Assembly: GCA_002499705.1 (NCBI GenBank) | Contig: DAMU01000036.1 | Location: 7,314-71,313, forward strand | Source of the DNA: Euryarchaeota archaeon UBA91 | Lineage (GTDB): Archaea; Thermoplasmatota; Poseidoniia; Poseidoniales; Poseidoniaceae | Direction of reading: 5' to 3' | DNA length: 64,000 nt | Shown: piece by piece, positions 3,010 to 25,032 of the stretch | Position numbering within the stretch: the stretch's first letter is position 1 | How the letters are laid out: each line of letters starts with the position of its first letter | Notes under the pieces: generated by a model | Told to the model about the DNA's origin: nothing | Seen by the model: the letters and a program-made list of their open reading frames with translations, nothing else | Databases searched by the model: none | Program-made: the position numbers and the translations under genes

Positions 3010-3052
3010 TGCAGGGGTAAGTTCATGTCTTGCGCCTATTCCCTTGTCGCAG

Positions 3053-3126
3053 GGGCCCGTAGCTTAGTTGGTTAGAGCACCCGGCTCATAACCGGGGGGT
3101 CAAGGGTTCAAGTCCCTTCGGGCCCA
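3053..3126 (+). tRNA. tRNA with CAU anticodon: elongator tRNA-Met, or tRNA-Ile2 if C34 is modified to agmatidine
   Basis: Folded by hand: acceptor stem GGGCCCG/CGGGCCC (7 bp), U8 A9, D stem GCTT/GAGC, anticodon stem CCCGG/CCGGG with loop CU-CAU-AA, 5-nt variable loop, T stem AAGGG/CCCTT with a TTCAAGT loop, discriminator A, no encoded CCA. Total 74 nt. G1-C72 argues against an archaeal initiator tRNA. Confidence 0.85.
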
Positions 3127-3152
3127 CTTTTGACGAGGGGCCCACGTAGGCG

Positions 3153-7221: not shown

Positions 7222-7262
7222 GTGTGTGCGTAGTAATCCCACATTATAGGCTTCTCTCCGTT

Positions 7263-7928: not shown

Positions 7929-7964
7929 AGGCTAGCACCTTTGCTTGATGTCGAGAGGGACGGT

Positions 7965-7987
7965 CTTTGAAACATCCCCTTTGAAAC
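7965..7987. promoter_or_regulatory. Direct repeat CTTTGAAAC (two copies, 5-bp spacer) in the carS/purD divergent intergenic region
   Basis: tCTTTGAAACatcccCTTTGAAACga at 7965-7973 and 7979-7987. Confidence 0.25.
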
Positions 7988-8057
7988 GATGTAAGAGTGC
8001 AAACTGTCTGAATGCAGACGCGATGGGATTATGTGATGGCGTCATCCCAAGCAAACT

Positions 8058-9332
8058 ATGGCAGGGAAGGTGGTACTCGTCGTCGGCGGAGGAGGGCGTG
8101 AACACGCACTTTGCATGGAGTTAGAACGTTCTCCACATGTTGCTGAATTGCACTGTTCTCCGGGCAATGCTGGAACATCACGTCTAGCGACGAATCATTC
8201 CATCTCTGCTACAGATATTGACGGGCTGCTGCATCTTGCCAAAACTCTTGATGCAGATTTGGTTGTTGCTGGACCTGAAGCCCCCTTGTGCGCATCACTT
8301 GCAGACCGATTGGAACAGGTTGGAATCCCATGCTTTGGGCCCGTAGCAAAACTTGCAAATCTTGAGGGTTCGAAGTTACACGCAAAACAAGTCATGCGTG
8401 CTGCAAATGTACCTACTGCTGCATTCCATGTTCTTTCAAACACCAGCGATATTGATGCTGCACTGGATGACTTTTCAGGTAATCCTTGGGTCGTCAAGCG
8501 AGATGTTTTGGCAGGTGGTAAGGGGGTTGTCGTTACTCAAAACAGAGAAGAGGCTCTCGAATTTATTCTAAGTTCCATCGAAAGTGATGGACAGGTTTTG
8601 CTTGAAGATTTCTTACCTGGAGAAGAAGCCAGTATGCTGGTCATCATGGATGGTTCCGGCTATGTTTGCCTCCCTGCAAGTCAAGATCACAAGCGTGCTT
8701 ATGATGGCGATGAAGGGCCAAATACTGGTGGAATGGGCGCTTATTGTCCCGCTCCAGTGGTTACAGATGCAATTCGACAAACAACGATTGAGACGATCAT
8801 TGAACCGATGCATCGGTATTTACTCGCAGGTGGAACTCCGTATCGCGGAGTCCTCTATGTAGGCCTAATGATCCCCGAATCTGGAGAGCCGAACGTTGTT
8901 GAATTTAACGTTCGTTTTGGTGATCCAGAGTGCCAAATTACCTTGCCTTTGTTGAAAACCGATGTCTTTGAAGTGCTTGAGGCTGCGGCCTTGGATCGCT
9001 TGTCGCAATTGAATGTAGAATTTCATAACCTCTATGCGACAACCGTTGTTTTGGCAGCAGAGGGTTATCCAAAATCTCCAGTAAAAGGTCGTTTGATTCA
9101 TGGGGCTGAGCATAAGATTCTGCAATCTGGCGGTGCTACTGCTTGGGTCAACCATGCAGGCACCAGTTTCGATGACCGCGGCCAACTGATTTCGACCGGT
9201 GGAAGAGTTCTCTCGTGCAGTGCATCTGCACCAACCCTCGAGGCTTCGGTGAAGTTAGCATATGAACTGATTGAATCGATTGAATTAGAAGGCTCGCATT
9301 ACCGAAGTGACATCGCATTTCGTGCACTTTAG
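8058..9332 (+). CDS. purD: Phosphoribosylamine--glycine ligase (GAR synthetase)
   Basis: N-terminus MAGKVVLVVGGGGREHALCMEL, the usual ATP-grasp layout (GGKGVVV and EEFL-GEE-like blocks), 424 aa. Confidence 0.9.
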   Translation: MAGKVVLVVGGGGREHALCMELERSPHVAELHCSPGNAGTSRLATNHSISATDIDGLLHLAKTLDADLVVAGPEAPLCASLADRLEQVGIPCFGPVAKLANLEGSKLHAKQVMRAANVPTAAFHVLSNTSDIDAALDDFSGNPWVVKRDVLAGGKGVVVTQNREEALEFILSSIESDGQVLLEDFLPGEEASMLVIMDGSGYVCLPASQDHKRAYDGDEGPNTGGMGAYCPAPVVTDAIRQTTIETIIEPMHRYLLAGGTPYRGVLYVGLMIPESGEPNVVEFNVRFGDPECQITLPLLKTDVFEVLEAAALDRLSQLNVEFHNLYATTVVLAAEGYPKSPVKGRLIHGAEHKILQSGGATAWVNHAGTSFDDRGQLISTGGRVLSCSASAPTLEASVKLAYELIESIELEGSHYRSDIAFRAL

Positions 9333-9510: not shown

Positions 9511-12500
9511 ATGGAACAAAAAACTGGCACACAAAGCACTGCGCCGGCAGCACCGTTGGGATGGCTTATTGCCCCCCTAGCAGTCCTGCTCGCTATCGCA
9601 GCCATCAAGCTCGTCGGAGTAGACTTCGAGCTCAACGTAGACAACATGACGCCGATGATATTCGTCATCGTCGCAAGTATCTTTGGACTTCTTCCATCGA
9701 TGCTAAACCAATCCGAATCTGCATCATTCTCAAAGGCCACTCTCTCCCTCTCAACATTGGCCGTTGCTCTTGTTGGTGCAGAAATTATCTATCTCCAAGG
9801 CTACGGTGCATTCACAGGTCTTCTGTTCGCTCTGGTTACCTTCGGCGTTCATTTCATGGCCAGTCGTGGACGATATGAACTCGCTTCGATTTTCATCTTC
9901 ACCGCCGTTGGAATCAATGTAGGAATCATCATGGCAGGAGATGCTCTTGCGACTCTTCCCGAGATTTACAACATGGCAGGAGTTGACGAACAACCGAGTT
10001 ATGTCTCGACTTTTAATCTGAAGAATCAAGCTGTGGGCTATCAGTTCTTTTCGTATCTGACTTTATTTATTTTGCTTGGCGCTCTTGTTGCCACCTTTGC
10101 TCGTGGTCAATTGACGCCTGTTAGCGAACAAGGCTGGTTCAGTTTCATGAACGCTGACACTTCATCATTCATCAACAAAAAGAACCTACCATTGCAAGTT
10201 GCTCTCGCAGTTTGGGCACTCGCTCACATCGCAAGCCTCTGGCATTACGACAGTGTTACTGTTGCTGATCAATTGGGAATCAACACCGTTGAAGGCTATC
10301 ATGGCTACTTCAGTTACTGGTCAGCGTTCTTCACCGGCATGGTTGCGCTTATCGTAGCAGGCATGTTTGCTGAACGCTGGCATACCCGTGCAATGACGCT
10401 TTCATCCATGTGGTTGTTGTATCAAGTCTCGACTTGGTATGATGCAGGAATGTTCGAAGTGGCAATGTTGGAAAACAACTGGGGAAGCCTCATCTGGCTT
10501 GGTGCAACGTTCTTTATTGGCGTTGGCATTTACTCGATTTCGACTCATGAATCGTGGGGCGGTTGGGTAAACCGTGAAGACCATGAATACTCTGGTGCTC
10601 GATTGTTCTGGAATCAAAACTGGGCCAGTGTTATGATTGGCTTGGCATTCTTCTTTGGATTGGTGATACGAACACAATGGTATCTCGTTCCTTCAATGAA
10701 TGCTTATGGCACTGGAAACTGGGACATGACCGGCGGTTCTGACCCGTGGTACATGAAGCGTGTTGTCGACTATATCCTTGCGAACAATGCACACATGATA
10801 TTTGATGCAGACCGGTTCTACCCAGTCGGTGGAATCAATCCTCGACCTCCAATCTTCACATGGTCAATCGCAGTCTTGGCTATGATTCTTGAACCGTTCT
10901 TCGACAACGGTGATGCAGTTTGGTGGGCGATTTTGTCTCTACCTGCAATTTACGGAGCACTCACCATCTTCCCTGTTGCTGCTATTGCACGAGAACATAT
11001 CAACGACAAAGCAGCAGTTATTGCTGCTTGGCTGATTGCTTTCATGCCTGCTCACGTGAGCCACACAACATGGGCTCTTGCTGACCACGACGCATTCATC
11101 ATGCTTTTCCTCACACTCGGATTCATGTTCTGGTTGCGAGCGGTCAAGTACGCAGGAACCGAGCGATTGCTACGTTCTTCATCAGCGACCCCTGCTGCGT
11201 TTATTGCGGCTATTTCTGCTGTTCTGACTCAACGAAAGGCTGCCTTTGCATCTGCTGTTTTAGCAGGTGTAAGTTTTGGTGTTGTCTCTCTTGGTTGGAA
11301 AGGTTTCGTAGTTGGCCCATCGATTTTATTCTTGGCTTACGCAGCTCAAGTTTCGATCAACATGTTCCGCCGTCGTGATTCAACAACACTCAATGTATTG
11401 TTCTTGACGATGCTTTCCGTCAATTTCTTGATGGCATTGCCGTTCTACGGCCACCCACAAATCAATCTGGTTCTTGACGGCACCGGCCTTCAACCGTTCT
11501 TGTTCATCTTTGTGTTCACATTGGCTATCAGCTTTGTAACGACCGGATTCCGAGACAAACCTTGGTTGCTTATTTTAGGTGTTCTCGCAACTTCTGGTGC
11601 TGTATTCTTCCTCGCATTGTGGCTTCTCAAGCAAGCAAATATTTCCAATGCTTGGGATGTCTTGTTCACAGGCAGTGGTTACTTTACCAAGACCAAGATT
11701 TTCGGAACAGTTGCAGAAGCAAACGCACCGAACAGAGGGCAACTCTTTGCGCAGTTCGGACCAATTACGTTTGTTCTCTCCCTGATTATGGGAGTTCTCT
11801 GCATCTGGTCTGCTCTTCGTGAACGTAAGCAAACCAATCTTGTATTCGGAATTTGGATTCTGGCAGCTTCCTTCATGGCTTGGACTGCGGCCCGATTCAT
11901 GTTCAATGCTACACCAGCCATCGCCGTTCTCGGTGCATGGGGAATTGTATCCCTTTGGAAGTGGGCTAATTGGGGTGGACTTGTCAAGACATGGAAGAAA
12001 CTCGGCATTCGTTCTCCTGAAGACCGAATCCGTGGAGCTCGTGTAGCTGTTTGGCGCACGCCGTCATTCTCAGCCATCATGCTTGTCATGATTATGCTGT
12101 TTGGTCAACAATTCACATACGGCCTTGATGCTGCTATCCCTGGCAGTAACAATGCAGAAGATGATATTGACGAAACCATTTACAACATCATTCCTGACGC
12201 TTTCCGTTGGGAAATTGGTGGCTTCTCACTGCTCGATGACAGTAATTACGACGGAAACTGGTATCTCGGTTCATTCGGGTCTGGTTTCAATGATAACGGT
12301 TGGAATACTGCGTATCAGTGGCTTGCATCTCAAGATACCGATATGAGTTATTCTCAACGTCCGGCATTCGTGTCATGGTGGGACTACGGTTTCCAAGCGC
12401 TCGATACCGGTGAACACCCATCTGTTTCCGATAACTTCCAGTCCGGAATCCCTGCAACTGGTAACATGTTGCTGGCTCGAAGCCAAGAGGACTTAGTCTC

Positions 12501-15500
12501 GATGTTTATCTGGCAACTAGGTCAAGGTGACATTGAATACAATCAAGCCCGAAATGGTGAAACAGCCTTTACTTCAGGATACAGTAACATCGTTGGCAAG
12601 TACCTCGTCGAAACTCAACAAATGGAACTCTTTACGACCATGTCAACAAGCGTCGACCATGATGAAATGATTGCGTTGGCAGAACTCAACAGTTTCCGAG
12701 TCTTCCAAACCAACGACGATGTTGTCCTTGCAGAAGGTTATCACCACACGAATGGAGTGTTTGACAAGTCAACACCTTACTGGCGTGTCTATGAAGACGG
12801 AGAACGCATGCTCTGTACAGAAGCACTCTCTCAAACCTGTGTTGATGGCGACTGGTCGGAATTGTTTGAAGCGAACCGAACATTCAACAACAATATTCGA
12901 ACTGGTGCAGACAACATTTACGACACCACACATTACATCATTGGAGATTATTGGTATACTGCTGATCTCATCGAAGAGTACGACTCGGTTGGAACCAACA
13001 TCCATCGTAAGAATACCCGTCTCTCGTTGACTGTGCAATTGCTTTCTCAGTCTCTCGAATCTCATCAAATCATCGACATGTATGACGATTTGATTAACCT
13101 TGAAGGCTATTATTCGGTCCAAGATTATGACGGAGCGCCAGGAGAAACGATTGACCGTGACCATGAAATCCGTTACTTCGCAATTGACAACCGATTGTAC
13201 CCTCGTGCAGGACGTTATACTGAAGACATGAATTACAACCAAGGACAGCCAATGGGTATCTTTGGTGCACCTACTATCTTGAGTGGTCAAGATGTTTCCA
13301 CTTACATGGATGAGGTCTACGAAACAATGCGTGGAGAGTTCCCTGATGAAATGACACGTGAAGAAGTTGACCTCGCGATTACGGAAGATTTCCTTAATCA
13401 ACAATCCGGTGCGGACATTGATCCATTACAGGTTCAAGACGTTCGTGTTGACCACAACGCTGCATTCTTCGACACTATGCTTGCTCGAGCATACGTGGGA
13501 TACGGGGCATCATCACTCGGTGTTGATGCAGGTTCATCCAATCCACAACCTGCACAACACTTTGGACAATCTGGAAGTCCGGGCAGTATATTGACTCAAG
13601 CGCTTCCATTACCAGGTGCAATGCAAAATCACTTTGTAATCGCGAACTGGTATACTGCTGAGGAGAACAGTTCAGTAACCGCTGAGCAGCAATCCACTGG
13701 AATCGCTTCAACAAACACACTTGTCAAGATTCTCAAGTATTACTCTGGTGCAGAAATTTCTGGCCAAGTGACAATGAGCGACAATGGGCAAGGCTTGCCT
13801 GGTGTTCGAATTCTGATTGAGCGTGATGCTTTCTCAGGCGAGGGTATTGAAGACCTTGACCCGGACACCTATTGGGTCCCAATCGGCTATACTGATGCTG
13901 ATGATGAGGGGAAGTGGTCTTTTGATGCTCCAGCTGGACGCATCCGTGTGAGCGCTTTTGCAGGTGATTACAATCCAACCACCGCTCAGGATAACATCCG
14001 TACTGGTGCTTTCTCTCAAGGATTAGGCGATATTTTGACGGTAACGAATGATGACCGCCAAATTAACGACATCACCGCTATTCTCGGTGAAGTTGCCAAC
14101 ATGAGTTGGCTTGGCGAATACCAGCACAACATCACAGCTCAACAAGCAGACAGGTTCGTCGATGTCCCTACTTCGTTTGACATCGCTGTCGAAAGCAGCG
14201 GTGTGTCAGGTCAAGTAACTTGGAGCGGGCACGAATCCTTCGACGGTGATGCTCTGGTCAGTACCGACTTCATTTTGCGTAACATCTGGTCCATGACTGA
14301 AAATTACACATTGACAACTACCAACGGTTCGTTCTCTTCTGATGACAGTCGAATCCTCCAAGGAACTGGTGAAGTGACATTTACCGAAAATGGAACCTTT
14401 GAAAGTGAAGGTGTAGCCTTTGCAGATGATTTCACTGGAACATTCACACGTTCTATTGCTGACGGTCGAGTTTACACAAGTAACGGAACCTGGAACGGCA
14501 AAGGTACACTTGAAGCATCTTGGATAAACTCTGAGAGCGTTGCTTCTTGTCTTGACAATGAAACTGCTCCAATGCCTGAAAATGAGTCGATATGTCTTCA
14601 AGACGCATCCGCCTCTCCACAGATTTACCTCTTAGACGGAGAAGTTGAAGCGAACGGAAGAATCACTTCTGATGGAATTTCCACCTTGGTTACCGAGCAC
14701 GTAGGTGACTCGTTTGAAGCGACTGGTTCGTTTGAAGGAACAGGAACTCTCAACGGCACCGGTCTCTTTGTCGGTGCTGGTGATTTCTCTGGGCCAATGG
14801 TCCAAGCAGGTTCATTCTACATCACCGGATTGATTCCTGGTGTTTACAACATGATTGCTCAGTTGGATAACGGCAAGGAAGTCTTGCTTCCAGATCCAGT
14901 GAATGTCGGAATTTCACCAACTTATGATTTGGAAATGAACATGCCAGGTTCAATCTTTGAGGACACTCTCGACGATTTCTTTGATGAACCGTTTGCAAAC
15001 GAGACTATTGAATTGGTTGATGTGGACCTTGGACTTTCAGAAGTAATCGAAATCCTCACTGATGAATTCGGTAATTTCTCGTATGGCCCAATTTCTGCAG
15101 GTGAATATTATTACAGAGTCGATGTTGATAACGATGGCTGGTATGAATTGAATGAAACATTCGTCGCTGGTGATTCCTCAGAGAACTTCACATTAGCCAT
15201 GAGTGTTCCTGAGATGCACGATATCTCTCTGCAACTCACTTCTCCTGTAGACCCACTTACACAAGAGCCATACGCTGATGTGACGGGTAGAGTCGTGACC
15301 TTCACGAATGATGATCCATTGTTCGGTCCACTGAACGCAACATCTGATGAAACTGGTCTTGTTTACATCGAATTGCCGATGGGAGCCTACACTATTTCTG
15401 ACGAAACTGGAGACGACTATATTCTGTTCGACTACGTTTCGCTTGAGACTGAAGACTTGTCGATTTCAAGTGCATACGCAATCGGAACATGGGTAAACGG

Positions 15501-18500
15501 AACTATCCGCGTCGCTGATGGCGGATTGTTCAACAATGATTTGACCTACGATGATTGGTCAGAACAAGATGACAGCATCAAATTCGACCAAAGCCAACCA
15601 GCATCTGGTCTTGATGTCTTCTTCATCTCCGATGACTTGTCATTCTCGGCCGTTGTTGAAACAGACGGAAACTACAGTATTCGACTACCGAGTGGTAATG
15701 ATTTCCACATGACGACCTTTAGTATCGCATCTCAGATGTCTGGAGGTCAATTGATTGAACTTACCGGTGATGCTGAAATGGATATGGGTCTTATGTATCT
15801 CAAGCCAACGACCGGGGTAACTGGTTTCGTATTCCTATACGATAATACATCCCTCTGGGATGGTCTAGCACCTGGTTACGAAAGTTCTCAAGAAGTCGTG
15901 GCAACCGATGCCGATGGACTTGAATGGAGGTCGCCAATCACAGATACTGGTGAATTCATCTTTAACTTGCAATACGGTGAATGGGATTTCACTGTTGATG
16001 TGGAAGCACTGAATTCTACTGATGTTGTCAATTACAACATCCTCAGTGAGTCTGATGCTATGCCAACACCTGTTGAACTGTTTGTCAACCCTGACTTTAT
16101 CACCATTGAACTCAATATATTCATGGATGCTGGAGCAGATGGCGTATTTGCCAATGGGACTGCTGTGAGCCCGTCTTTCACACTCATGCCGCTTAATGAC
16201 CATGGTCAACAGCACAACTACACTGCTGCAGACTATACTTCTGCGGGCAACATAACTGTTGTCTTAGAGCCTGGAATCTACTCTCTCCAACTCAATTCGA
16301 CAAACCCAGAGGATAGTAATGCGTCGGATTATGCGCTTCTCGGAGCAAATGTGTTTGACCCAATTATTGTAGGGCTTGAAGCATATGAAGAAGCAGTTCC
16401 ATTCCCACTACGTAACGAATACTTGGTGACTGGAGAACTGTTGAACAACAGCGGTGGTGCAGTAGAGAAGCAATTCTTGCTTCGAAATGAAGCCGACGAT
16501 CTGTGGTTTAACATGGCATCAGATGAGAACGGCAGTTTCGCCTCCTACGTTACAGCTGGTGATTGGGTTGCAATTGTTGCTCCATTCATAGCAGATAATG
16601 ACAGTACTGAAACTCTACGCTATCCGTTTACTGTTGGCCCAGATTCATCCGTTCGATACAATTTGTCCTTGACTTCACAAGATGTCATTGAAATGAATTT
16701 CCAACTGCAAGAATCGGACACTGATTCCAACATGTCCGGAATACGTGTTACTTTGGTTAGCCATGACGGGTTTGGCAATGTGACTCTGTCGAAATCCGAT
16801 GATAGCGGAAATGTATCAGAAGAAATAATGCCAGGTAACTGGAGCCTCTTCCTCAACGAAACAGCTCCACAGCGTCATTGGTCACTTGAATACGGACCGT
16901 TCCATACTGACAGTGCTGTCGATGGAGTTCTTGATATCGGAATCATCAATGCAGAACTGGAAGTTGAAATTGGCGGAAAGGTCTTCTGGGATCTTGACGA
17001 CAACGATATTCCAGGTGGAACAGAGGGTGTTGCAAACACAACAGTCTCCGTTGTTGGAATGAATAATTCACAAATTGATACGAATGTGACTACCGATGAA
17101 TTCGGTGTTTGGTCCTTGTTTGTCCCTATTGACGATGAATACCAAGTCACTGTGAGTAAAGAAGGTTTCAGCACCGAGGTTTACAACATCTCGAACTCAA
17201 GTGCTTACCCTGTCTATTCAGAACCCGAATCATATGATATTGAAATGACTGCTGGAAACGTTGTCGTTTCTGGCAATGTTACTGACATTAACGATGCGAG
17301 CCGATTGAACGGCTCCACAGTCGTTCTCTATCCTTCCAGTGGTATGGCAGGAGATATCCAAAATGTTACCCCAGTCTTTGAAAATAATCAACTGACATGG
17401 TCTGCGGTTATTGCACCAGGTGAATGGATTGTTGTTGTGACACAAGCAGATGCTGGTGAAAACGGCGGCGGTGTTGCTGTTGGATTACTTGACGCAAGTA
17501 TTTCCGACGGTGCAACACTCGACCTTGAAATGTCACTTGGTGGATGGATTGATTTGACAACCTCCTGGACAGACATCAACTTGAACGACCACCATGCAGG
17601 TTCCGGAGATACCAACGGCTCGGCTCTCTTGAATGAGTCCGTATCTGTGACCTTTGGAATTGGTTCTGATATTGAATGGGATATGCCAGTCGGAAATGAC
17701 GGAACCATCAGTATCTTGATGCCTGCTGAAGAAATCGAAATGGATTCATCCTTCGTAACTATTCAGCATGACCTCAATTTAGAAATGAACTACATTGGTG
17801 GTGCAGTGACACTTGTTGCTGAGGGCCGTTCTCCAGTCGCTCTTTCATACACACGCAGTATCAATTCAGATACTTCAATCACCATGGTGGAAAACAGCAT
17901 AGTGAACGCAACTGTTGTCGCTGATTCTGACCTTTCCTTTGTGGCAATTGAAGAAGAAGAAGCCTACAAGGCAATTGAGTTCGACTTGAACATCCAGTAT
18001 GACGGCACAGAAACAACTCAAGTGTTTGATGTCGCAGGTCAAATTGGAATCGCACCTGATGAAGCAGATTGGAACATTGAATTCTGGGATGGAACGAATT
18101 TCGTTGAATCCCACAACGTTACACTCGGAATCGGTGAAGATTTGAATGATACCAGTGTTGAATCATCAACTGTTCTTCGGGTGAGAATTCTTGCGCCGAA
18201 CCAGTCTGATGCATGGCATCTTGAAGAGCCTCATACTCTCAAGGTTCGATTGAGTACTGATTCTACACCTTCAAGTGAGATTGCCGTATCTGTTCAGGTA
18301 CCTCAGATCTATGCATTTGAGTTCTCTGATGTCCCAACTGTTGTTGGTCTCGACAACGCAGGAAGCCAGACATTTGGCTTTGATTTGACGAATTTGGGTA
18401 ACGGTGACGATACGTTTACTATTGAACTTGCAGACAACATCCCTGAAGGTTGGGAAATCACTCCGATGCAATCGGTTATGACCATCACCAAAGATGTGAC

Positions 18501-19086
18501 GCGCTCGCAATTGTTCACGATATTTTCAGCGACTGATTTCACTGAAGGAACAAAGACGGTAACTGTAACTGTTACCAGTTCCAACGGATTGCTTTCTGAT
18601 ACCTTTGATGTCGACATTATTCCATTGAGTATCCGGCTTGACATCGATCAAGGTGACATCATTACGCTTTCAGGTTCAACCGCAGATACACAAAATCAAC
18701 TGGTTATTCCAGTCACCAACCTTGGTTTGATGGCAACGGATAATGTTGAAGTTTCAGCAAAGATTGTTGACGGTAAGTCACTTGGCACAGTTACGATTTC
18801 GCTTGATGCAGAATCAACAACAAATGCGAACTTCACTGTCTCCGCTGCGGACTCAGGAAGCACAGTTCGATTTGAAGTAACTGTAGAAGTTGTTGGTGAT
18901 GACAGCAATAAGGTGACTCAGGAAATCGGTGCAGACAAGATGATTGATTTCAGTGTTGAATACTACATTGACGAAACCACTGAGGAGTCTCCTTGGTTTA
19001 CACTCGTTATCTTCGTCATCGGTGCTCTTGTAGTCTACGGTGGTGTTCGATTAGCCCGAAGCCGCTCTTCATCGACTCGATTCTGA
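9511..19086 (+). CDS. aglB: AglB/STT3 oligosaccharyltransferase fused to a giant extracellular beta-sandwich array with a C-terminal TM anchor (about 3190 aa)
   Basis: Track ORF 9454..19086 starts at a GTG. I prefer the ATG at 9511 (MEQKTGT). Residues 1 to about 420 form an extra polytopic domain. The OST core starts at DPWYMKR (nt about 10741, first external loop). The WWDYG catalytic motif is at nt about 12376-12390. After about nt 13400 there are roughly 1900 aa of tandem CarboxypepD_reg/transthyretin-like modules (e.g. GQVTMSDNGQGLPGVRILIERD...YWVPIGYTDADDEGKWSF; LTDEFGNFSYGPISAGEYYYRVD). It ends with a TM helix FTLVIFVIGALVVYGGV plus RLARSRSS. Confidence 0.8.
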   Translation: MEQKTGTQSTAPAAPLGWLIAPLAVLLAIAAIKLVGVDFELNVDNMTPMIFVIVASIFGLLPSMLNQSESASFSKATLSLSTLAVALVGAEIIYLQGYGAFTGLLFALVTFGVHFMASRGRYELASIFIFTAVGINVGIIMAGDALATLPEIYNMAGVDEQPSYVSTFNLKNQAVGYQFFSYLTLFILLGALVATFARGQLTPVSEQGWFSFMNADTSSFINKKNLPLQVALAVWALAHIASLWHYDSVTVADQLGINTVEGYHGYFSYWSAFFTGMVALIVAGMFAERWHTRAMTLSSMWLLYQVSTWYDAGMFEVAMLENNWGSLIWLGATFFIGVGIYSISTHESWGGWVNREDHEYSGARLFWNQNWASVMIGLAFFFGLVIRTQWYLVPSMNAYGTGNWDMTGGSDPWYMKRVVDYILANNAHMIFDADRFYPVGGINPRPPIFTWSIAVLAMILEPFFDNGDAVWWAILSLPAIYGALTIFPVAAIAREHINDKAAVIAAWLIAFMPAHVSHTTWALADHDAFIMLFLTLGFMFWLRAVKYAGTERLLRSSSATPAAFIAAISAVLTQRKAAFASAVLAGVSFGVVSLGWKGFVVGPSILFLAYAAQVSINMFRRRDSTTLNVLFLTMLSVNFLMALPFYGHPQINLVLDGTGLQPFLFIFVFTLAISFVTTGFRDKPWLLILGVLATSGAVFFLALWLLKQANISNAWDVLFTGSGYFTKTKIFGTVAEANAPNRGQLFAQFGPITFVLSLIMGVLCIWSALRERKQTNLVFGIWILAASFMAWTAARFMFNATPAIAVLGAWGIVSLWKWANWGGLVKTWKKLGIRSPEDRIRGARVAVWRTPSFSAIMLVMIMLFGQQFTYGLDAAIPGSNNAEDDIDETIYNIIPDAFRWEIGGFSLLDDSNYDGNWYLGSFGSGFNDNGWNTAYQWLASQDTDMSYSQRPAFVSWWDYGFQALDTGEHPSVSDNFQSGIPATGNMLLARSQEDLVSMFIWQLGQGDIEYNQARNGETAFTSGYSNIVGKYLVETQQMELFTTMSTSVDHDEMIALAELNSFRVFQTNDDVVLAEGYHHTNGVFDKSTPYWRVYEDGERMLCTEALSQTCVDGDWSELFEANRTFNNNIRTGADNIYDTTHYIIGDYWYTADLIEEYDSVGTNIHRKNTRLSLTVQLLSQSLESHQIIDMYDDLINLEGYYSVQDYDGAPGETIDRDHEIRYFAIDNRLYPRAGRYTEDMNYNQGQPMGIFGAPTILSGQDVSTYMDEVYETMRGEFPDEMTREEVDLAITEDFLNQQSGADIDPLQVQDVRVDHNAAFFDTMLARAYVGYGASSLGVDAGSSNPQPAQHFGQSGSPGSILTQALPLPGAMQNHFVIANWYTAEENSSVTAEQQSTGIASTNTLVKILKYYSGAEISGQVTMSDNGQGLPGVRILIERDAFSGEGIEDLDPDTYWVPIGYTDADDEGKWSFDAPAGRIRVSAFAGDYNPTTAQDNIRTGAFSQGLGDILTVTNDDRQINDITAILGEVANMSWLGEYQHNITAQQADRFVDVPTSFDIAVESSGVSGQVTWSGHESFDGDALVSTDFILRNIWSMTENYTLTTTNGSFSSDDSRILQGTGEVTFTENGTFESEGVAFADDFTGTFTRSIADGRVYTSNGTWNGKGTLEASWINSESVASCLDNETAPMPENESICLQDASASPQIYLLDGEVEANGRITSDGISTLVTEHVGDSFEATGSFEGTGTLNGTGLFVGAGDFSGPMVQAGSFYITGLIPGVYNMIAQLDNGKEVLLPDPVNVGISPTYDLEMNMPGSIFEDTLDDFFDEPFANETIELVDVDLGLSEVIEILTDEFGNFSYGPISAGEYYYRVDVDNDGWYELNETFVAGDSSENFTLAMSVPEMHDISLQLTSPVDPLTQEPYADVTGRVVTFTNDDPLFGPLNATSDETGLVYIELPMGAYTISDETGDDYILFDYVSLETEDLSISSAYAIGTWVNGTIRVADGGLFNNDLTYDDWSEQDDSIKFDQSQPASGLDVFFISDDLSFSAVVETDGNYSIRLPSGNDFHMTTFSIASQMSGGQLIELTGDAEMDMGLMYLKPTTGVTGFVFLYDNTSLWDGLAPGYESSQEVVATDADGLEWRSPITDTGEFIFNLQYGEWDFTVDVEALNSTDVVNYNILSESDAMPTPVELFVNPDFITIELNIFMDAGADGVFANGTAVSPSFTLMPLNDHGQQHNYTAADYTSAGNITVVLEPGIYSLQLNSTNPEDSNASDYALLGANVFDPIIVGLEAYEEAVPFPLRNEYLVTGELLNNSGGAVEKQFLLRNEADDLWFNMASDENGSFASYVTAGDWVAIVAPFIADNDSTETLRYPFTVGPDSSVRYNLSLTSQDVIEMNFQLQESDTDSNMSGIRVTLVSHDGFGNVTLSKSDDSGNVSEEIMPGNWSLFLNETAPQRHWSLEYGPFHTDSAVDGVLDIGIINAELEVEIGGKVFWDLDDNDIPGGTEGVANTTVSVVGMNNSQIDTNVTTDEFGVWSLFVPIDDEYQVTVSKEGFSTEVYNISNSSAYPVYSEPESYDIEMTAGNVVVSGNVTDINDASRLNGSTVVLYPSSGMAGDIQNVTPVFENNQLTWSAVIAPGEWIVVVTQADAGENGGGVAVGLLDASISDGATLDLEMSLGGWIDLTTSWTDINLNDHHAGSGDTNGSALLNESVSVTFGIGSDIEWDMPVGNDGTISILMPAEEIEMDSSFVTIQHDLNLEMNYIGGAVTLVAEGRSPVALSYTRSINSDTSITMVENSIVNATVVADSDLSFVAIEEEEAYKAIEFDLNIQYDGTETTQVFDVAGQIGIAPDEADWNIEFWDGTNFVESHNVTLGIGEDLNDTSVESSTVLRVRILAPNQSDAWHLEEPHTLKVRLSTDSTPSSEIAVSVQVPQIYAFEFSDVPTVVGLDNAGSQTFGFDLTNLGNGDDTFTIELADNIPEGWEITPMQSVMTITKDVTRSQLFTIFSATDFTEGTKTVTVTVTSSNGLLSDTFDVDIIPLSIRLDIDQGDIITLSGSTADTQNQLVIPVTNLGLMATDNVEVSAKIVDGKSLGTVTISLDAESTTNANFTVSAADSGSTVRFEVTVEVVGDDSNKVTQEIGADKMIDFSVEYYIDETTEESPWFTLVIFVIGALVVYGGVRLARSRSSSTRF
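12376..12390 (+). other. WWDYG catalytic motif of the STT3/AglB oligosaccharyltransferase
   Basis: tgg tgg gac tac ggt in the frame of the 9454/9511 ORF (AFVSWWDYGFQALD). Confidence 0.8.
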
Positions 19087-19162: not shown

Positions 19163-20383
19163 GTGAGTGATTTAGATAATTTCGAATTACTTCCTGAACC
19201 CGAAGATTCTCGAATTCTCTCGGCGATTGACCCTTCTGCGGTTGGCTTTCAAGATGGCTGGAGAGCAGAGGTTACTGGTTGGGCACCGTATGAGGCAACC
19301 CCAGTTCCGCGTGTACGCCGAAAGAGGCTGCTTGCCACCAATGGAGTCTTTTTTGCTGTGATTGCCGTCATATTACTGGTAGTATGGAATTCAGGACTTT
19401 TGTTCATCGAACTCTCACCGCCAAAATCCGAATGGGCTTTTGAACAATCGCAATTCGATGAGTTTTCAGAAACTGGACTGAGTGGCGATGGTGTTCGAGT
19501 TTGCATGGTTGACACTGGTATCGATTTGAGTCACCCTGCTTTTTCAGGCATCGAGGTCACATTCAAGGATATGATTGGAAATTCTGATTCTCCTCTCGAT
19601 TATGGATATGTGGCACATGGAACGCTCATGGCAGGCATTTTGGTTTCAGGAGAACACCAGATGGGCATTGCTCCAAACATCACCTTGGCTGTCGTTGCTG
19701 CACTCGGAGCTGATGATGAAAATATGAACAGCGGTTCAGAGGACACTGTGGCGAGTGCAATCTTATGGTGTCAAGATGAATTCCAAGCCGATATCATCTC
19801 ACTATCGCTCGGAGGTGAGCAACAAGTTCAGATGGAGACAGAAGGCTCGAGCGTTTCTGCAGTGCGACGTGCAGTCGATTCAGGGATATTTGTCGTTGCA
19901 GCTGCTGGAAACGACGGTGGGAGTGGAGATGATGGGCTGGTGTCCGTCCCGGGTAATGTACCTCGAGTCATCACCGTTGGTGCATCGACCCAAGAACAAA
20001 CAGTTTGGGTCAATTCTTCATCGGGCTCCCAAACCCTCTCTGACGGCACTCTTCGTCAAAGTCCGCATCTAAAACCCGAGGTCATCGCACCAGGTGAGAA
20101 CATAATCAGCACTGGTTCTGGCGACCGCTGGTATTCCAGCAGCGGTACTTCAGACTCGACAGTATTTGTGACCGGAGCCCTTTCGCTCATTCTTGAGGCA
20201 TACCCGTCCTTCAAGCCAACTTCGGATTCAAATGGCGATTGTATTGATCTTGTCAAGAACTCGTTGAAGGATACTTCACTCCGATATCAACTTACAGTGG
20301 AACATGACAATCGCTGGGGCTATGGTCAACTTCAAGCCTTTGATTGGTTCCAAGACTTGGCAGGACAATCTGCGAATTGCTGA
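19163..20383 (+). CDS. Subtilisin-like serine protease (peptidase S8) with N-terminal signal anchor
   Basis: Catalytic triad contexts CMVDTGIDLSHPAF (Asp), HGTLMAGIL (His) and SGTSDSTVFVTGALSL (Ser). N-terminal TM segment VFFAVIAVILLVVW. Lies 76 bp downstream of aglB. Confidence 0.8.
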   Translation: MSDLDNFELLPEPEDSRILSAIDPSAVGFQDGWRAEVTGWAPYEATPVPRVRRKRLLATNGVFFAVIAVILLVVWNSGLLFIELSPPKSEWAFEQSQFDEFSETGLSGDGVRVCMVDTGIDLSHPAFSGIEVTFKDMIGNSDSPLDYGYVAHGTLMAGILVSGEHQMGIAPNITLAVVAALGADDENMNSGSEDTVASAILWCQDEFQADIISLSLGGEQQVQMETEGSSVSAVRRAVDSGIFVVAAAGNDGGSGDDGLVSVPGNVPRVITVGASTQEQTVWVNSSSGSQTLSDGTLRQSPHLKPEVIAPGENIISTGSGDRWYSSSGTSDSTVFVTGALSLILEAYPSFKPTSDSNGDCIDLVKNSLKDTSLRYQLTVEHDNRWGYGQLQAFDWFQDLAGQSANC

Positions 20384-20585: not shown

Positions 20586-23500
20586 GTGTCTATTTTGAAG
20601 AACACAACATCACACAAAAGCATATCGTTAGTCGCATTATTGTTGCTCTCAGTGTTAACCGGCCTGGTAACTCTACCAACCGCATCCGCTGTCAACGAAA
20701 CGAAGTCTGGAATTATTTCTGGAACTGAAACTTGGACTGGAACAATGAACCTCAACGGCGATGTTACCGTCGCAGAAGGTGCTAAACTCATCGTTAATGC
20801 AGGAACGACCGTAAACATACCTTATGGTTACTACATTGATGTTGAGGGTGCGATTTGTATCGGTGACACGTCATGCGGTTCAAGTTCTGGTTCAGCAAGT
20901 AATCAAGCACGCTTCATCTGGTCAACCCCTTCTGATTATACCCTACAAGGCCGCTGCTATTCGAATAACAGCAACAATCCAAACTACAATGATGATACTG
21001 CATGTGGTTCTGGAATGATTATTCGTTCCACTATTGACCAAGCGATAACTTCGATTAAATACGCTCACTTTGAAAATGCATACGGTATTCCCTTCGACAC
21101 AAATCAGGTGAGCGGTAAGCAATACGGTGTATTGGTTTTTGACGGTTCCTCGACAACCGCAACTGGACTCAGTTTCCAAGACATTAACACATCGAATATC
21201 ATTGCTCTGGACCTTGCATCACCAACCATTGATGATTCGACATTCACGCTTGGTATCGATGGTAATGGATACGATGCTGCAGCCGTTCGTGCCTATGGAG
21301 CTGGTGCTGGAATTCTTGGAACTATGCGTATACAGAACTCTGATTTCACCGGTAACACCGAAGCAGATTGTGGACAACAAGGCGGAGGCCGCAGCCTCAT
21401 TTACATCGAAGAGTCGTATGTAGATCTCTCGAATCTCGAACTCAAGGACAATGCATACGGATTGTTCTTGAAACAGAGTTCTGGCTCGCTTACAAATTCA
21501 ACAATTGATGTCAAGTGCAGTGGAATTGATACAAACTCTCACAAAGTCACTGGAACCATCAACCATACCCTATACCTAAACGACAACGACATCACAACCG
21601 CAGATGGTTCTGGAATCACTGCTTATGATGGTGCAATCGTTGTAGCAAACCGAAACACAATTTCAGGCGCAGCCCAGGGTTCAGGATTTGGTATCCGTTC
21701 GTCTTCTGTCATTGCAAATGACAACGTCATCGGTCCAATCGGTGGCTGGAATGGTTTGTGGATATACGGCACTTCTGATGTGAGTGCTGAAAACAACACC
21801 ATTCAGGATACAGCAAAAGAGGCCGTCCTCATTGGAGAATACCACTTCAACGACCAAGGATGGAATGTTCCTACACCAACTGCGGCTCGTTTGTATTTGG
21901 CAAATAACCTCATTTCCAACAACACTGGAACATGCAACTCACAAATGTATGATGGCGATTTCCCATGTCCAGCTATCCACGTTTTCATGTCATCTGCCAC
22001 AATTTATGATAACACTGTAGTCAATAACGGTGGAGATGGCATGCGTATCAAAGGCAGTATTGTCAATGCACAACGAAACACTATGGAAGTATCTGGCTTT
22101 GCAGCCAACATCAGCATGTTTGACGATAATTACGGAAGTAAATACGGTTCGATTGCATACTTCTCCGGCAACTCTTACTCGAATGCTTCACAAATTTACA
22201 ACATTACAGAATCCCGTGTTACCGTCCAATCTGAATATATCCCAGATGCAGGTGGCAACGAACTCTATCCCGTTCAATTGAGCTGGCTTGGTCCTGAATG
22301 CCCGTATGTATTGGATGAATGTCTCATTGTTCCATCGACTGCCGTCATGCCTCCAGCATTCATGCCTTTGGCACTGGAAGTTATCGACAACTCCACCGTG
22401 TTTTCATATGCGAACTTACAGAACTTTGACTCATCAAAGATTCATGTTCAGAACCAAAACTCAGCATGGGGTAGCCAAGTTCGTGAAGGTGAACTCGTGC
22501 GCTATCAAGTCAAAGCAAAGAACAGCAATGTTGCTGGAGCAACAGTCGTTATCCGTGATGCTACTGGACTACCACTCTACACATTGACAACCGATGCATT
22601 TGGATTCACACCAGAAGTATCTCTTCCATCTGATTTCCTTCTTGACCGTAATTGGAACCACTTAGTAGGTGAAAATAATGTTCAAATTCCTGGCGTGACG
22701 GATGCTCAAGGTAACCCTGTCTTTATCGATGAAGATTCATGTTCTGACGGATATGACAACGATGGTGATACCAAAGTAGATGCAGAAGACAGCGACTGTA
22801 CAAACGGTCGAGAGTTGCCGTTCTACTCCGTTGAAGCATACATGTTCGGCAAAGGTCAGAAAGATTTTGACTTCGTACTAAGCGGTTCGATTGATGATGT
22901 GATTAACCTTGATAATCTCAAACCAAGCGTGACTGTGACTCAAAATGACGGGTTCTCATTTGCCACAACTGTCGAACTTACCGGTTCTTCATGGGACGGT
23001 ATCAGCGGTCCTTACCCTCTGGACTTTGTTGCCTACCAAAACCAATTTGGATTAATCAAGCGTGTTGAAATCCAGCCCCCGGGTTCCACAGATTGGTACT
23101 CTGCTATCGATACATCGGGTGCGGCTGGTATGATCACCAAATCAAATCATCCTTTCAAGACATGGAGTTTTGACTGGGAAATGTCTGCTCATCCTGAAGG
23201 AGAAGGCGATGTTACATTCCGTGTGCGTTCATACGATGGCTTGGATTACTCACCTGTGGAAGTTCGTAAATACAAACTCAACTTGGTGGCTCCTTCGATT
23301 TTAGTTGACACTCCAAATGATGGGACATCTCACGATAATGGAAAAGTGACGTTCACCGGAACTGCCAGTGACCCCTATTCGGGAACTTGGGGGAGCGATA
23401 TCAACTCAATTTGGTTCGATATCAATGGTCCGAATGGATATACTGCTAACTTTGACATTCCCGGCTCAACCGCATGGGCATACGATTGGCAATTCCAAGA

Positions 23501-24974: not shown

Positions 24975-25032
24975 AGTCTCAACGCTCACGAAAGGGGAAC
25001 TATTGAAACGGAGGAAAACCGGAGAGAAGATT

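What the first reader, a model, noticed from the sequence alone, without database searches (positions are those of the whole stretch)
9511..19086. AglB/STT3 oligosaccharyltransferase fused into a roughly 3200-aa protein with both ends in the membrane
A typical archaeal AglB is 600-1000 aa: 13 TM helices plus a periplasmic domain carrying WWDYG. Here that unit (DPWY loop at about 10741, WWDYG at about 12376) has two large additions.
- Upstream: an extra polytopic domain of about 420 aa of unknown function.
- Downstream: about 1900 aa of tandem CarboxypepD_reg/transthyretin-like beta-sandwich modules, ending in a TM helix plus an Arg-rich stop-transfer (FTLVIFVIGALVVYGGVRLARSRSS).
The predicted topology is therefore membrane-anchored at both ends with a giant extracellular arc. 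That could place the OST catalytic site in, or scaffold it onto, the cell envelope or S-layer. The gene is followed directly by a subtilase and then a giant beta-helix surface protein. Alternatively the gene is not the housekeeping OST at all.
Basis: partly seen in the sequence, partly recalled or inferred. Interest (0 to 1): 0.7.

Follow-up and report, generated by a model that had tools for sequence, protein, structure and literature searches.

The report
Giant membrane-looped archaeal oligosaccharyltransferase (AglB)
The enzyme that attaches sugar chains to secreted proteins is, in the abundant ocean archaea of Marine Group II, built into one conserved 3,190-residue protein with an extra ten-helix membrane domain of unknown fold and a huge sugar-coated outer domain that re-enters the membrane, an architecture I found described in no paper.

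Summary
Window 9511-19086 (+) is one intact ORF of 3,191 aa. It contains a complete STT3/AglB core, aa ~370-1400, with GGSDPWY, DHD, TVAE, AARF and WWDYG all invariant.

The core is preceded by a ~369-aa domain of 10 TM helices. That domain has no Pfam, PDB or fold match and is never found on its own. The core is followed by ~1,750 aa of acidic, sequon-rich beta-sandwich ectodomain, one TM helix and a basic tail ending in Phe.

It is not an artefact or a one-off. I found 241 full-length relatives of 3,027-3,338 aa (median 3,183). They occur in 382 GTDB species genomes and in both Poseidoniales families, with the same gene neighbourhood down to 28-39% identity. So the giant form is the norm in this order. 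Databases label it only 'STT3 domain-containing' or 'hypothetical', and no paper I could search describes the architecture.

Best reading: this is the order's catalytically competent AglB, probably the housekeeping one, with built-in accessory modules. The functions of the two additions are inferred, not shown. Whether a second, canonical aglB exists in these genomes could not be tested.

Verdict: new variant of a known kind; interest 0.6.

The parts
9511..19086 (+). Giant AglB/STT3 gene: 3,191 codons plus stop, 349 kDa
   Evidence: Intact ORF. A 100%-identical protein P0001 and more than 240 colinear orthologues exist.
9511..10617 (+). N-terminal extension, aa 1-369. It has 10 TM helices with the N-terminus in the cytoplasm. 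It is specific to this family and its fold is unassigned. The conserved charged residues (RGRYE 119-123, RG..P....GWF 198-210, AERWHTR 287-293, GGW.NR...E.S.AR.F 350-366) lie on the cytoplasmic face.
   Evidence: Hydropathy. AlphaFold2: pLDDT 84.6, pTM 0.83, 10 long helices. No Pfam hit at E<=1. hhalign against the STT3 TM core gives probability 0.2%. The profile against 1.84 billion representatives hits only giant proteins or their fragments. No credible PDB fold match. Invariant residues.
10618..12120 (+). STT3/AglB transmembrane core, aa 370-870, 13 TM helices (GT-C type)
   Evidence: PF02516 and TIGR04154. The profile aligns to A. fulgidus AglB-L residues 4-447 (3WAJ/5GMY).
10732..10752 (+). 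External loop 1 catalytic motif GGSDPWY (D411)
   Evidence: Aligned to GGNDPWY of AfAglB-L. Invariant in 241/241.
11083..11091 (+). Second acidic motif DHD (aa 525-527)
   Evidence: Aligned to the DHH of FNDHH in AfAglB-L. Invariant in alignments A4 and A5. Variants listed.
11707..11718 (+). External loop 5 motif TVAE. The family consensus is T-(I/V)-(G/A)-E, which is TIXE-type.
   Evidence: T733 and E736 are invariant. Variants counted. The assignment to the TIXE motif is by position and pattern; HMMER's alignment in this loop is offset.
11887..11907 (+). AARFMFN. R795 aligns with the Arg of QNRFAYY in AfAglB-L TM11-12 (a candidate phosphate-binding Arg).
   Evidence: Alignment. R795 is invariant. 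The role of the Arg rests on general knowledge of AglB/PglB structures and was not tested.
12376..12390 (+). WWDYG motif (aa 956-960), followed by DNFQ at 12430-12441
   Evidence: Aligned to WWDYG of AfAglB-L and of the AglB-S C-terminal domains. Present in 241/241.
12121..13710 (+). Extracytoplasmic AglB domain, aa 871-1400. It includes a less conserved ~200-aa insertion (aa ~990-1195, nt 12478-13095) with an invariant Cys pair C1102/C1110. It also includes a very conserved block, aa 1200-1400 (IRYFAIDNRLYP, MGIFGAPTILSGQD).
   Evidence: Conservation profile. Invariant columns. The first AlphaFold2 model gave pLDDT ~80 only for the insertion. The region is depleted in sequons. The DK/MI motif was not identified.
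13711..18975 (+). Ectodomain, aa 1401-3155: 189 kDa, pI 4.05, sequon-rich, made of beta-sandwich modules. Detectable modules: CarboxypepD_reg-like at 13756-13989 and 17023-17190, and CARDB-like at 18670-18918. Other conserved features: invariant Cys pair C1680/C1695 (14548-14595) and an invariant DxDxDG loop (15121-15138).
   Evidence: Pfam. Weak NOMO2 match. Sequon density 2.6-3.6 per 100 aa against 1.0-1.4 expected, with 13 sequons at least 80% conserved. Composition. Invariant columns.
18997..19083 (+). C-terminal TM helix (aa 3163-3181) and cytoplasmic basic tail ARSRSSSTRF ending in Phe
   Evidence: Hydropathy. Conserved tails. 238/241 end in F, as PF, RF or KF.
19163..20383 (+). Conserved downstream neighbour: S8 subtilase. 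It is a type II membrane protein with a cytosolic LPEPxD.RILSA.D peptide, a basic cluster, a TM helix and an external catalytic domain.
   Evidence: Pfam PF00082. Alignment of five orthologues. Adjacent in every locus examined.
20586..24974 (+). Conserved neighbour: 1,462-aa type I surface protein with beta-helix and Big_7 domains, a TM helix at aa ~1352 and a cytoplasmic tail
   Evidence: Conserved position.
24883..27558 (+). Conserved neighbour: cytoplasmic STAND NTPase (AAA_16) with TPR repeats
   Evidence: Conserved position.
7263..9332 (.). Conserved upstream neighbours: CDP-archaeol synthase (7263-7928, - strand) and PurD (8058-9332, + strand)
   Evidence: Synteny.

Best explanation
This is the Poseidoniales (Marine Group II) version of AglB, the STT3-type oligosaccharyltransferase. 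AglB transfers a lipid-linked glycan to Asn in N-x-S/T sequons of proteins on the outer face of the cytoplasmic membrane.

**Shown.**
- It is one gene and one ORF.
- It has a complete 13-TM STT3 core, and every catalytic motif I could place is invariant.
- It is inherited vertically as a core gene of the order, in both Poseidoniaceae and Thalassarchaeaceae, with a nearly fixed length.
- Two additions occur only together and only in this family. One is an N-terminal 10-TM domain of unassigned fold. The other is a ~1,750-aa acidic beta-sandwich ectodomain that returns to the membrane through a last TM helix with a conserved basic tail ending in Phe.

**Inferred topology.** N-terminus in the cytoplasm, then 23 TM helices, then the catalytic domain and the ectodomain outside, then TM24, with the tail in the cytoplasm.

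**Inferred function, in decreasing confidence.**
1. The enzyme is active, and it is probably the cell's general OST.
2. The ectodomain is itself heavily N-glycosylated. It has conserved, enriched sequons, and the catalytic domain next to it is depleted of them.
3. The ectodomain is a fixed multi-domain structure rather than a variable adhesin stalk. I think it acts as a built-in accessory or scaffold module. It forms a glycosylated arch over the active site and integrates the enzyme into the cell envelope. This would resemble, in cis, the luminal accessory subunits of eukaryotic OST.
4. The N-terminal domain presents a conserved cytoplasmic face. It may dock a partner there, possibly the protein's own C-terminal tail, the translocon, or glycan-assembly enzymes.
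For: **Identity and catalytic motifs.**
- PF02516 above its cut-off and TIGR04154 at E 6e-47.
- The profile aligns to all 13 TM helices of A. fulgidus AglB-L and to yeast and human STT3.
- GGSDPWY, WWDYG and DNFQ are present in 241/241 relatives. T(I/V)(G/A)E and DHD are conserved. R795 is invariant.

**Core-gene status.**
- 241 full-length relatives of 3,027-3,338 aa, SD 43.
- 382 GTDB species genomes.
- A second clade is named Thalassarchaeaceae.
- Relatives are colinear end to end at 28-39% identity.
- The block carS-purD-OST-S8-surface protein-STAND is kept in all five loci examined.
- GC content matches the surrounding DNA.
- The gene is transcribed in situ: 'aglB' is up-regulated in O1-active samples in the supplement of PMC9723583.

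**N-terminal extension.**
- Confident 10-helix model.
- Only 78 hits in 1.84 billion representative proteins, all giants or contig-end fragments.
- No Pfam, PDB or fold match, and it is not a duplicate of the core.

**Ectodomain.**
- Beta-sandwich families are found in all 14 diverse members tested.
- Sequon density is 2.6-3.6 per 100 aa against 1.0-1.4 expected. It is 0.25 against 0.83 expected in the catalytic domain. Thirteen sequons are at least 80% conserved.
- Other secreted proteins of the window are also sequon-rich, whereas cytoplasmic ones are not. This implies a working N-glycosylation system.
- It has invariant Cys pairs and a DxDxDG loop.

**Other.** No second STT3 is present in the 64-kb window.
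Against: - Nothing here measures activity, abundance, glycosylation or localisation.
- The DK/MI motif that completes the Ser/Thr pocket could not be located.
- The AlphaFold2 model of the core plus periplasmic domain was poor (pLDDT 48). There is no structural check of the active site or of how the additions pack.
- I could not scan a whole Poseidoniales genome, so a second, canonical aglB cannot be excluded.
- The score against TIGR04154 (160 bits) is far below that model's cut-off of 450.
- Conserved gene order may partly reflect the generally syntenic genomes of this order rather than functional coupling.
- The roles proposed for the N-terminal domain and the ectodomain are inference from architecture only.
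Confidence: 0.6

Rival explanations
1. This is a dedicated rather than general OST. It would be a specialised paralogue that glycosylates a particular set of envelope proteins, for example the neighbouring 1,460-aa surface protein, as part of a conserved surface-maturation cluster with the S8 protease. A separate canonical AglB elsewhere in the genome would do the general work.
For: - The block OST / membrane-anchored S8 protease / type I surface protein / STAND-TPR is kept even at 28-39% identity, with short intergenic gaps.
- Some archaea are known, from general knowledge, to carry several AglB paralogues. A. fulgidus AglB-L, -S1 and -S2 all appear among the PDB hits.
Against: - The gene is found in 382 species genomes of a streamlined order.
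- No second STT3 lies in the window.
- Neither full-length homologue search listed a canonical-length STT3, but each list shows only the best 120 hits, which were full-length giants or partial copies of them. This is weak evidence.
- The published MAG annotation that mentions aglB mentions one, but that table lists only differentially expressed genes.
Confidence: 0.2
2. This is a polyprotein. The chain would be cleaved after the AglB unit (around aa 1340-1400), perhaps by the adjacent membrane-anchored subtilase. That would release a separate, C-terminally anchored, heavily glycosylated surface (S-layer-like) protein and an AglB of ordinary size that keeps the N-terminal domain.
For: - An extracellular, membrane-anchored S8 protease is always encoded immediately downstream.
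- The ectodomain resembles an archaeal surface glycoprotein. It is acidic, sequon-rich, made of beta-sandwiches and has a C-terminal TM anchor.
- The boundary region (NPQPAQHFGQSGSPGS...) is Gly/Pro/Ser-rich.
Against: - No cleavage motif or precedent was identified.
- The boundary region is itself highly conserved, and the first CarboxypepD_reg-like domain follows it directly, as the last domain does in canonical AglB-L.
- The fusion has been kept intact in every one of 241 full-length members. A gene split, which would be expected if the covalent link were dispensable, was never seen.
Confidence: 0.15
3. This is a catalytically inactive, purely structural envelope protein that has kept an STT3-like membrane anchor.
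For: - The DK/MI motif was not found.
- The score is below the TIGR04154 cut-off.
Against: All other catalytic motifs are invariant over 241 sequences and down to ~30% identity. The STT3 core is the most conserved part of the protein. This is the pattern expected of an active enzyme.
Confidence: 0.03
4. This is an artefact: a frameshift or mis-assembly has joined a normal aglB to a neighbouring surface-protein gene.
For: None found.
Against: The same uninterrupted ORF is present in hundreds of independent assemblies. These include single-cell genomes and polished contigs of 0.5-1.7 Mb.
Confidence: 0.01

Closest known systems
AglB-L of Archaeoglobus fulgidus (PDB 3WAJ, 5GMY, 7E9S) and archaeal AglB in general
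   Same: - Homologous 13-TM GT-C core.
- The EL1 Asp motif (GGNDPWY vs GGSDPWY), the DxH/DHD motif, a TIXE-type EL5 motif, the Arg in TM11-12, and WWDYG with the following (A/D)N(P/F)FQ.
- An external C-terminal catalytic domain.
   Different: - AfAglB-L is 875 residues as crystallised, and the solved STT3 chains hit here are 705-935 residues. This protein is 3,191.
- AfAglB-L has no N-terminal 10-TM domain.
- It has no ~200-aa insertion after WWDYG.
- It has no 1,750-aa ectodomain.
- It has no C-terminal TM helix.
Eukaryotic OST complex (STT3A/B plus ribophorins, OST48 and other subunits; e.g. PDB 6S7O, 6S7T, 6C26)
   Same: The catalytic subunit is homologous. By analogy, extra TM helices and large beta-rich domains sit on the non-cytoplasmic side next to the active site.
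   Different: In eukaryotes these parts are separate subunits. Here they are in one chain. No sequence similarity to any accessory subunit was found. The resemblance is in how it may work, not in membership.
NOMO (Nodal modulator) of the BOS complex (PDB 9C7V; Pfam NOMO1-like_9th, NOMO_3rd)
   Same: A string of CarboxypepD_reg/transthyretin-like beta-sandwich domains, then a single C-terminal TM helix and a short cytosolic tail, on the topologically equivalent side of the membrane. 8 of 14 family members hit PF22902. There is a weak profile hit to NOMO2, E 0.034.
   Different: The similarity is marginal and limited to generic beta-sandwich modules. NOMO has no STT3 domain and no N-terminal membrane domain, and it is eukaryotic.
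Archaeal S-layer/surface glycoproteins with C-terminal anchors (e.g. the Haloferax volcanii S-layer glycoprotein with PGF-CTERM/ArtA) and the TIGR04154 'archaeosortase A-associated STT3' subfamily
   Same: An acidic, sequon-rich extracellular beta-rich polypeptide ending in a TM helix plus a basic cluster. The best NCBIfam hit is TIGR04154.
   Different: - There is no PGF motif before the last helix (tails).
- The tail ends in a conserved Phe.
- The score is below the TIGR04154 cut-off (160 vs 450 bits).
- The surface-protein-like part is covalently joined to the enzyme.

Membership tests
STT3/AglB/PglB oligosaccharyltransferase (GT-C, CAZy GT66) | N-terminal membrane domain of 13 TM helices homologous to STT3 | tested here: met
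   PF02516 scores 53 bits against a cut-off of 24.5. The profile aligns to AfAglB-L residues 4-447. About 13 hydrophobic segments lie in aa 370-863.
STT3/AglB/PglB oligosaccharyltransferase (GT-C, CAZy GT66) | Catalytic acidic residue in external loop 1 (first DxD-type motif) | tested here: met
   GGSDPWY aligns to GGNDPWY of AfAglB-L. D411 is invariant in 241/241.
STT3/AglB/PglB oligosaccharyltransferase (GT-C, CAZy GT66) | Second acidic motif (DxD/DxH/ExD) after TM helix 3-4 | tested here: met
   DHD 525-527 aligns to the DHH of FNDHH in AfAglB-L. It is invariant in A4 and A5.
STT3/AglB/PglB oligosaccharyltransferase (GT-C, CAZy GT66) | TIXE/SVSE motif in external loop 5 | tested here: met
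   TVAE 733-736. The family consensus is T(I/V)(G/A)E, with T and E invariant. Placement is by pattern, because the HMMER register in this loop is offset.
STT3/AglB/PglB oligosaccharyltransferase (GT-C, CAZy GT66) | WWDYG motif in the external C-terminal domain | tested here: met
   aa 956-960, present in 241/241, aligned to AfAglB-L and the AglB-S domains.
STT3/AglB/PglB oligosaccharyltransferase (GT-C, CAZy GT66) | DK or MI motif that forms the Ser/Thr-binding pocket together with WWDYG | tested here: inconclusive
   No alignment reaches it. The region aa 1194-1430 alone has no PDB hit. The invariant block IRYFAID1226NRLYP...MGIFGAP is a candidate by eye only. The AlphaFold2 model of this part is unusable.
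STT3/AglB/PglB oligosaccharyltransferase (GT-C, CAZy GT66) | Transfer of lipid-linked oligosaccharide to Asn of N-x-S/T | not testable with these tools
   Indirect evidence only: secreted proteins of the window are sequon-rich.
NCBIfam TIGR04154, archaeosortase A system-associated STT3 | Score at or above the curated cut-off (450 bits) over the 831-position model | tested here: not met
   160.6 bits, with model positions 3-574 matched.
PGF-CTERM/archaeosortase substrates | PGF (or a similar) motif immediately before the C-terminal TM helix and basic tail | tested here: not met
   The tails read ...ESPWFTLVIFVIGALVVYGGVRLARSRSSSTRF. No conserved PGF is present, and the conserved features are YGG and a terminal F.
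CarboxypepD_reg / transthyretin-like beta-sandwich (Pfam PF13620) | Score above the Pfam gathering threshold | tested here: met
   37.3 bits against 32.3 for the whole protein. 14/14 diverse members match, best E 1e-20.
NOMO/BOS-complex family | Significant similarity to NOMO-specific domains | tested here: not met
   PF22902 scores 19.7 bits against a cut-off of 27. PDB 9C7V E 0.034. The similarity is generic beta-sandwich only.

The most novel reading that the evidence does not exclude
The protein may be an all-in-one glycosylation and envelope machine, in three parts.

1. The ~190-kDa self-glycosylated ectodomain, held at both ends in the membrane, would be a principal structural element of the still unseen Marine Group II cell envelope. 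It would be an S-layer substitute whose subunit is the OST itself.
2. The orphan 10-TM domain would provide a function that is normally separate. Candidates are translocation or recycling of the dolichol-phosphate glycan carrier, or docking of the Sec translocon.
3. The conserved C-terminal ...(K/R/P)F tail would close the loop on the cytoplasmic face of that domain.
Probability: 0.12. Interest if true: 0.85.

Novelty: new variant of a known kind. Interest (0 to 1): 0.6.

Why it matters
Poseidoniales are among the most abundant archaea in surface oceans. They have never been cultured, and their cell envelope is unknown.

If this is their only OST, then every N-glycoprotein on their surface is made by an enzyme about four times larger than any characterised STT3/AglB/PglB. 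It carries 24 predicted TM helices and a built-in glycosylated ectodomain.

That has three consequences:
- It gives a concrete, order-wide candidate for an envelope component.
- It provides a natural example of OST accessory modules fused in cis, which is relevant to how multi-subunit eukaryotic OST may have arisen.
- It adds a new 10-TM membrane domain of unknown fold, fused to a dolichol-dependent enzyme.

It is also a practical warning. Automatic annotation calls many of these genes 'hypothetical protein' or 'GT39'.

Tried and rejected
- **AlphaFold2 of aa 361-1500 with a 14-sequence alignment** gave pLDDT 48. It was too poor for the active site, the DK/MI motif or a fold search, so I discarded it.
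- **Internal duplication.** hhalign of the N-terminal domain against the STT3 TM core gave probability 0.2%. Rejected.
- **True tandem repeats in the ectodomain.** HMMs built from four modules find only themselves; the one exception is a CARDB-like pair, aa 2930-3027 and 3052-3134. Rejected as sequence repeats.
- **Stand-alone N-terminal domain proteins.** The short hits turned out to be contig-end fragments. One ended in an adapter-derived peptide.
- **C-terminal tail as a general sorting signal.** The other surface proteins in the window have different C-termini. It lacks PGF.
- **DK/MI motif.** phmmer of aa 1194-1430 against the PDB gave no hit.
- **Literature.** Eight full-text searches, reading of five papers and two supplement look-ups found no description of a giant AglB. 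I found only 'aglB' or 'oligosaccharyltransferase' listed as an expressed gene.
- **Second canonical aglB.** It cannot be searched genome-wide with the remaining tools. Only the window was searched, and nothing was found.


Full report
**What is in the sequence.**

One ORF runs from 9454 (GTG) to 19086 on the + strand. Orthologues begin at the ATG at 9511 (MEQKTGT...), so the product is 3,191 aa and 349 kDa. DPWY starts at nt 10741 and WWDYG at nt 12376.

Pfam STT3 matches aa 408-670 (E 4e-14, above the curated cut-off). NCBIfam TIGR04154 (archaeal STT3) matches aa 375-993 (E 6e-47), though far below that subfamily's cut-off.

The window is archaeal. It carries CDP-archaeol synthase and archaeal pilin-like genes. 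Its AglB core region is 98% identical at the protein level to a Poseidoniales single-cell genome. GC content is uniform across the gene and its surroundings. The strong T excess at 10-12 kb is what a run of TM helices produces.

**The enzyme core.**

A family profile aligns to residues 4-447 of Archaeoglobus fulgidus AglB-L (PDB 3WAJ/5GMY), which is all 13 TM helices. It also aligns to the WWDYG region, to the C-terminal domains of AglB-S1/S2, and to yeast and human STT3.

The motif correspondences are:

| This protein | AfAglB-L counterpart |
|---|---|
| GGSDPWY (D411) | GGNDPWY |
| LADHD (525-527) | FNDHH |
| AARF (R795) | QNRF |
| WWDYG...DNFQ | WWDYG...ANPFQ |

TVAE (733-736) fits the TIXE-type motif of external loop 5.

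In 241 full-length relatives, G..DPWY, WWDYG and DNFQ are universal. The loop-5 motif is always T(I/V)(G/A)E, and DHD is nearly universal. These residues are invariant in alignments reaching 31% identity. The STT3 core is the best conserved part of the protein.

The DK/MI motif could not be located. The sequence after WWDYG has a ~200-aa insertion. The very conserved block at aa 1200-1400 has no PDB match on its own. My AlphaFold2 model of aa 361-1500 was too poor to use (pLDDT 48).

**The N-terminal addition.**

Residues 1-369 contain ten long helices. This comes from an AlphaFold2 run with a 31-sequence alignment reaching 17% identity, giving pLDDT 84.6 and pTM 0.83. Hydropathy agrees.

Ten helices before STT3 TM1, which must run from inside to outside, put the N-terminus in the cytoplasm. 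The basic loops (RGRYE, RG...KK, AERWHTR) then fall inside and the acidic loops outside.

The invariant polar residues (E123, R198, E288) and the nearly invariant R364 all lie on the cytoplasmic face.

The domain has no detectable relatives outside this family:
- No Pfam match at E<=1.
- It is not a duplicate of the STT3 membrane domain (hhalign probability 0.2%).

A profile of it searched against 1.84 billion representative proteins found only 78 sequences. Every complete one is 3,146-3,228 aa. The short ones are contig-end fragments, and one ends in an adapter-derived peptide. The domain therefore exists only in these giant enzymes.

**The C-terminal addition.**

After the AglB external domain (to aa ~1400) come ~1,750 residues. 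This region is very acidic (pI 4.05; 289 Asp+Glu against 51 Lys+Arg) and rich in Ser, Thr, Asn and Gly.

Pfam detects CarboxypepD_reg-like modules at aa 1416-1493, around aa 2027-2063 (weak, no stretch significant on its own) and at aa 2505-2560. It detects CARDB-like modules near the C-terminus. Across 14 diverse members, all hit CarboxypepD_reg. Many hit NOMO1-like, SdrD_B, SpaA/prealbumin, NPCBM_assoc, CARDB or Big_1. A beta-sandwich array is therefore well supported.

The modules are not repeats of each other, apart from one CARDB-like pair.

The total length is strikingly fixed: median 3,183 aa, SD 43, over sequences that share only ~28% identity in this region. This argues for a defined multi-domain structure rather than a variable stalk.

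Two invariant Cys pairs (C1102/C1110 in the insertion of the AglB external domain, C1680/C1695 in the ectodomain) and an invariant DxDxDG loop fit an extracellular folded protein.

N-x-S/T sequons are enriched two- to three-fold in aa 1401-2600, at 2.6-3.6 per 100 aa against 1.0-1.4 expected from composition. They are depleted in the catalytic external domain, at 0.25 against 0.83. Thirteen sites are conserved in at least 80% of orthologues. Other secreted proteins in the window are also sequon-rich, and cytoplasmic ones are not.

The chain ends with a TM helix (aa 3163-3181) and a short basic tail. 238 of 241 relatives end in Phe, as PF, RF or KF. There is no PGF-type sorting motif.

**Distribution.**

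A full-length search returned more than 120 clusters at 50-100% identity. Nearly all are 3,125-3,227 aa with 99-100% coverage; two listed entries are shorter, at 2,829 and 2,904 aa.

A search with the most divergent representative returned another 120 clusters, nearly all 3,122-3,338 aa; a few partial or shorter entries are also listed. One of them is named Candidatus Thalassarchaeaceae.

A scan of one genome per GTDB species found 382 genomes encoding a relative. The 80 shown are all Poseidoniales/Poseidoniaceae, apart from one evidently mis-binned contig.

The gene order CDP-archaeol synthase / PurD / giant OST / S8 subtilase / ~1,430-aa surface protein / STAND-TPR NTPase is the same at 54%, 50%, 36% and 28-39% identity.

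The subtilase is a type II membrane protein with an external catalytic domain. The next protein is a type I membrane protein.

The giant form is thus an ancestral, order-wide core gene of Marine Group II. It is neither a peculiarity of this genome nor an assembly artefact.

**What is known.**

Databases carry these proteins under several labels:
- 'asparagine N-glycosylation enzyme membrane subunit Stt3'
- 'STT3 domain-containing protein'
- 'dolichyl-phosphooligosaccharide-protein glycotransferase'
- 'glycosyltransferase family 39 protein'
- 'hypothetical protein'

One transcriptomic study lists 'aglB' among genes up-regulated when a Thalassarchaeaceae genus is active (PMC9723583).

Eight full-text searches, reading of five papers (reviews of archaeal N-glycosylation and the main Poseidoniales genomics papers) and two supplement look-ups found no mention of its size, its extra membrane domain or its ectodomain. 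The library does not include most subscription-journal papers, so an existing description cannot be excluded.

**Interpretation.**

I am confident (about 0.95) that this is a genuine, single-chain STT3/AglB homologue with the architecture described.

I think it likely (about 0.65) that it is the general OST of these cells. The grounds are its universality, the intact motifs, in-situ expression, a sequon-rich secretome and the absence of any other STT3 in what I could search. This needs a whole-genome check.

The functions of the additions are inferred only. The ectodomain is probably itself a major N-glycoprotein and a fixed scaffold anchored at both ends. It is comparable in role, though not in ancestry, to the luminal accessory subunits of eukaryotic OST or to the NOMO beta-sandwich rod.

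The N-terminal domain offers a conserved cytoplasmic surface for a partner. The co-occurrence of this domain with the conserved C-terminal helix and tail suggests that the two ends may meet.

The rivals are a dedicated paralogue working with the neighbouring protease and surface protein (0.2), a polyprotein cleaved into AglB plus a surface glycoprotein (0.15), an inactive structural protein (0.03) and an artefact (0.01).

**Verdict.**

This is a new variant of a known kind of enzyme. It is widespread in a globally important, uncultured group and undescribed in the searchable literature. Interest 0.6.

Noticed in passing
window 20586-24974, 38250-43685, 50368-53253 (all + strand): Three large surface proteins are type I membrane proteins: signal peptide, big ectodomain, one TM helix near the end. 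Their Pro-rich cytoplasmic tails end in a shared motif...PGWLWDAESNNWVPDPNYVPEQ...PQGWTQEQWNHFGWDYVNAMKK and ...PAGWTMEQWAWYGEDYLKNR. The first of them is followed by a cytoplasmic STAND NTPase with TPR repeats (24883-27558), a domain type that often binds C-terminal peptides.
   Followed up: partly
window 19163-20383 (+); L001 19617-20825, L002 19624-20856, L083 19731-20981, L085 19551-20807: The S8 subtilase next to the giant OST has a conserved ~55-aa cytoplasmic N-terminus (LPEPxD.RILSA.D), a basic cluster and a TM helix before the catalytic domain. It is therefore a membrane-anchored extracellular protease, conserved in position across the order.
   Followed up: partly
L047 (contig NZEQ01000036.1): A contig assigned to a 'Verrucomicrobiales bacterium' MAG encodes the archaeal giant OST with 69% identity over the 1,140-aa AglB core query. 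This is almost certainly a mis-binned Poseidoniales contig.
   Followed up: no
protein P0190 (359 aa): This apparent stand-alone copy of the N-terminal domain ends in ...LLYTSPSPRD. From my own knowledge, that is the translation of the Nextera transposase adapter, so the protein is a read-through fragment, not a real short protein.
   Followed up: yes
window 28032-31324 (-): Two adjacent genes (736 and 361 aa) have archaeal type IV pilin-like N-termini (Pilin_N, DUF7289). The 736-aa one has an orthologue of similar length (736-757 aa) at the same relative position in three related loci (L001, L002, L085), but not in the most divergent locus examined (L083).
   Followed up: no
window 5572-7284 (-): A 570-aa CARDB-domain protein with a C-terminal TM helix lies next to carS. 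A protein of similar length (570-602 aa) sits at the same place in the related loci, sometimes without any Pfam hit.
   Followed up: no
window 32425-38178 (+) and 50368-53253 (+): Very large secreted proteins (1,917 and 961 aa) carry thrombospondin type 3 (TSP3) calcium-binding repeats. This gene class was noted earlier as widespread in Poseidoniales (PMC6461757).
   Followed up: no
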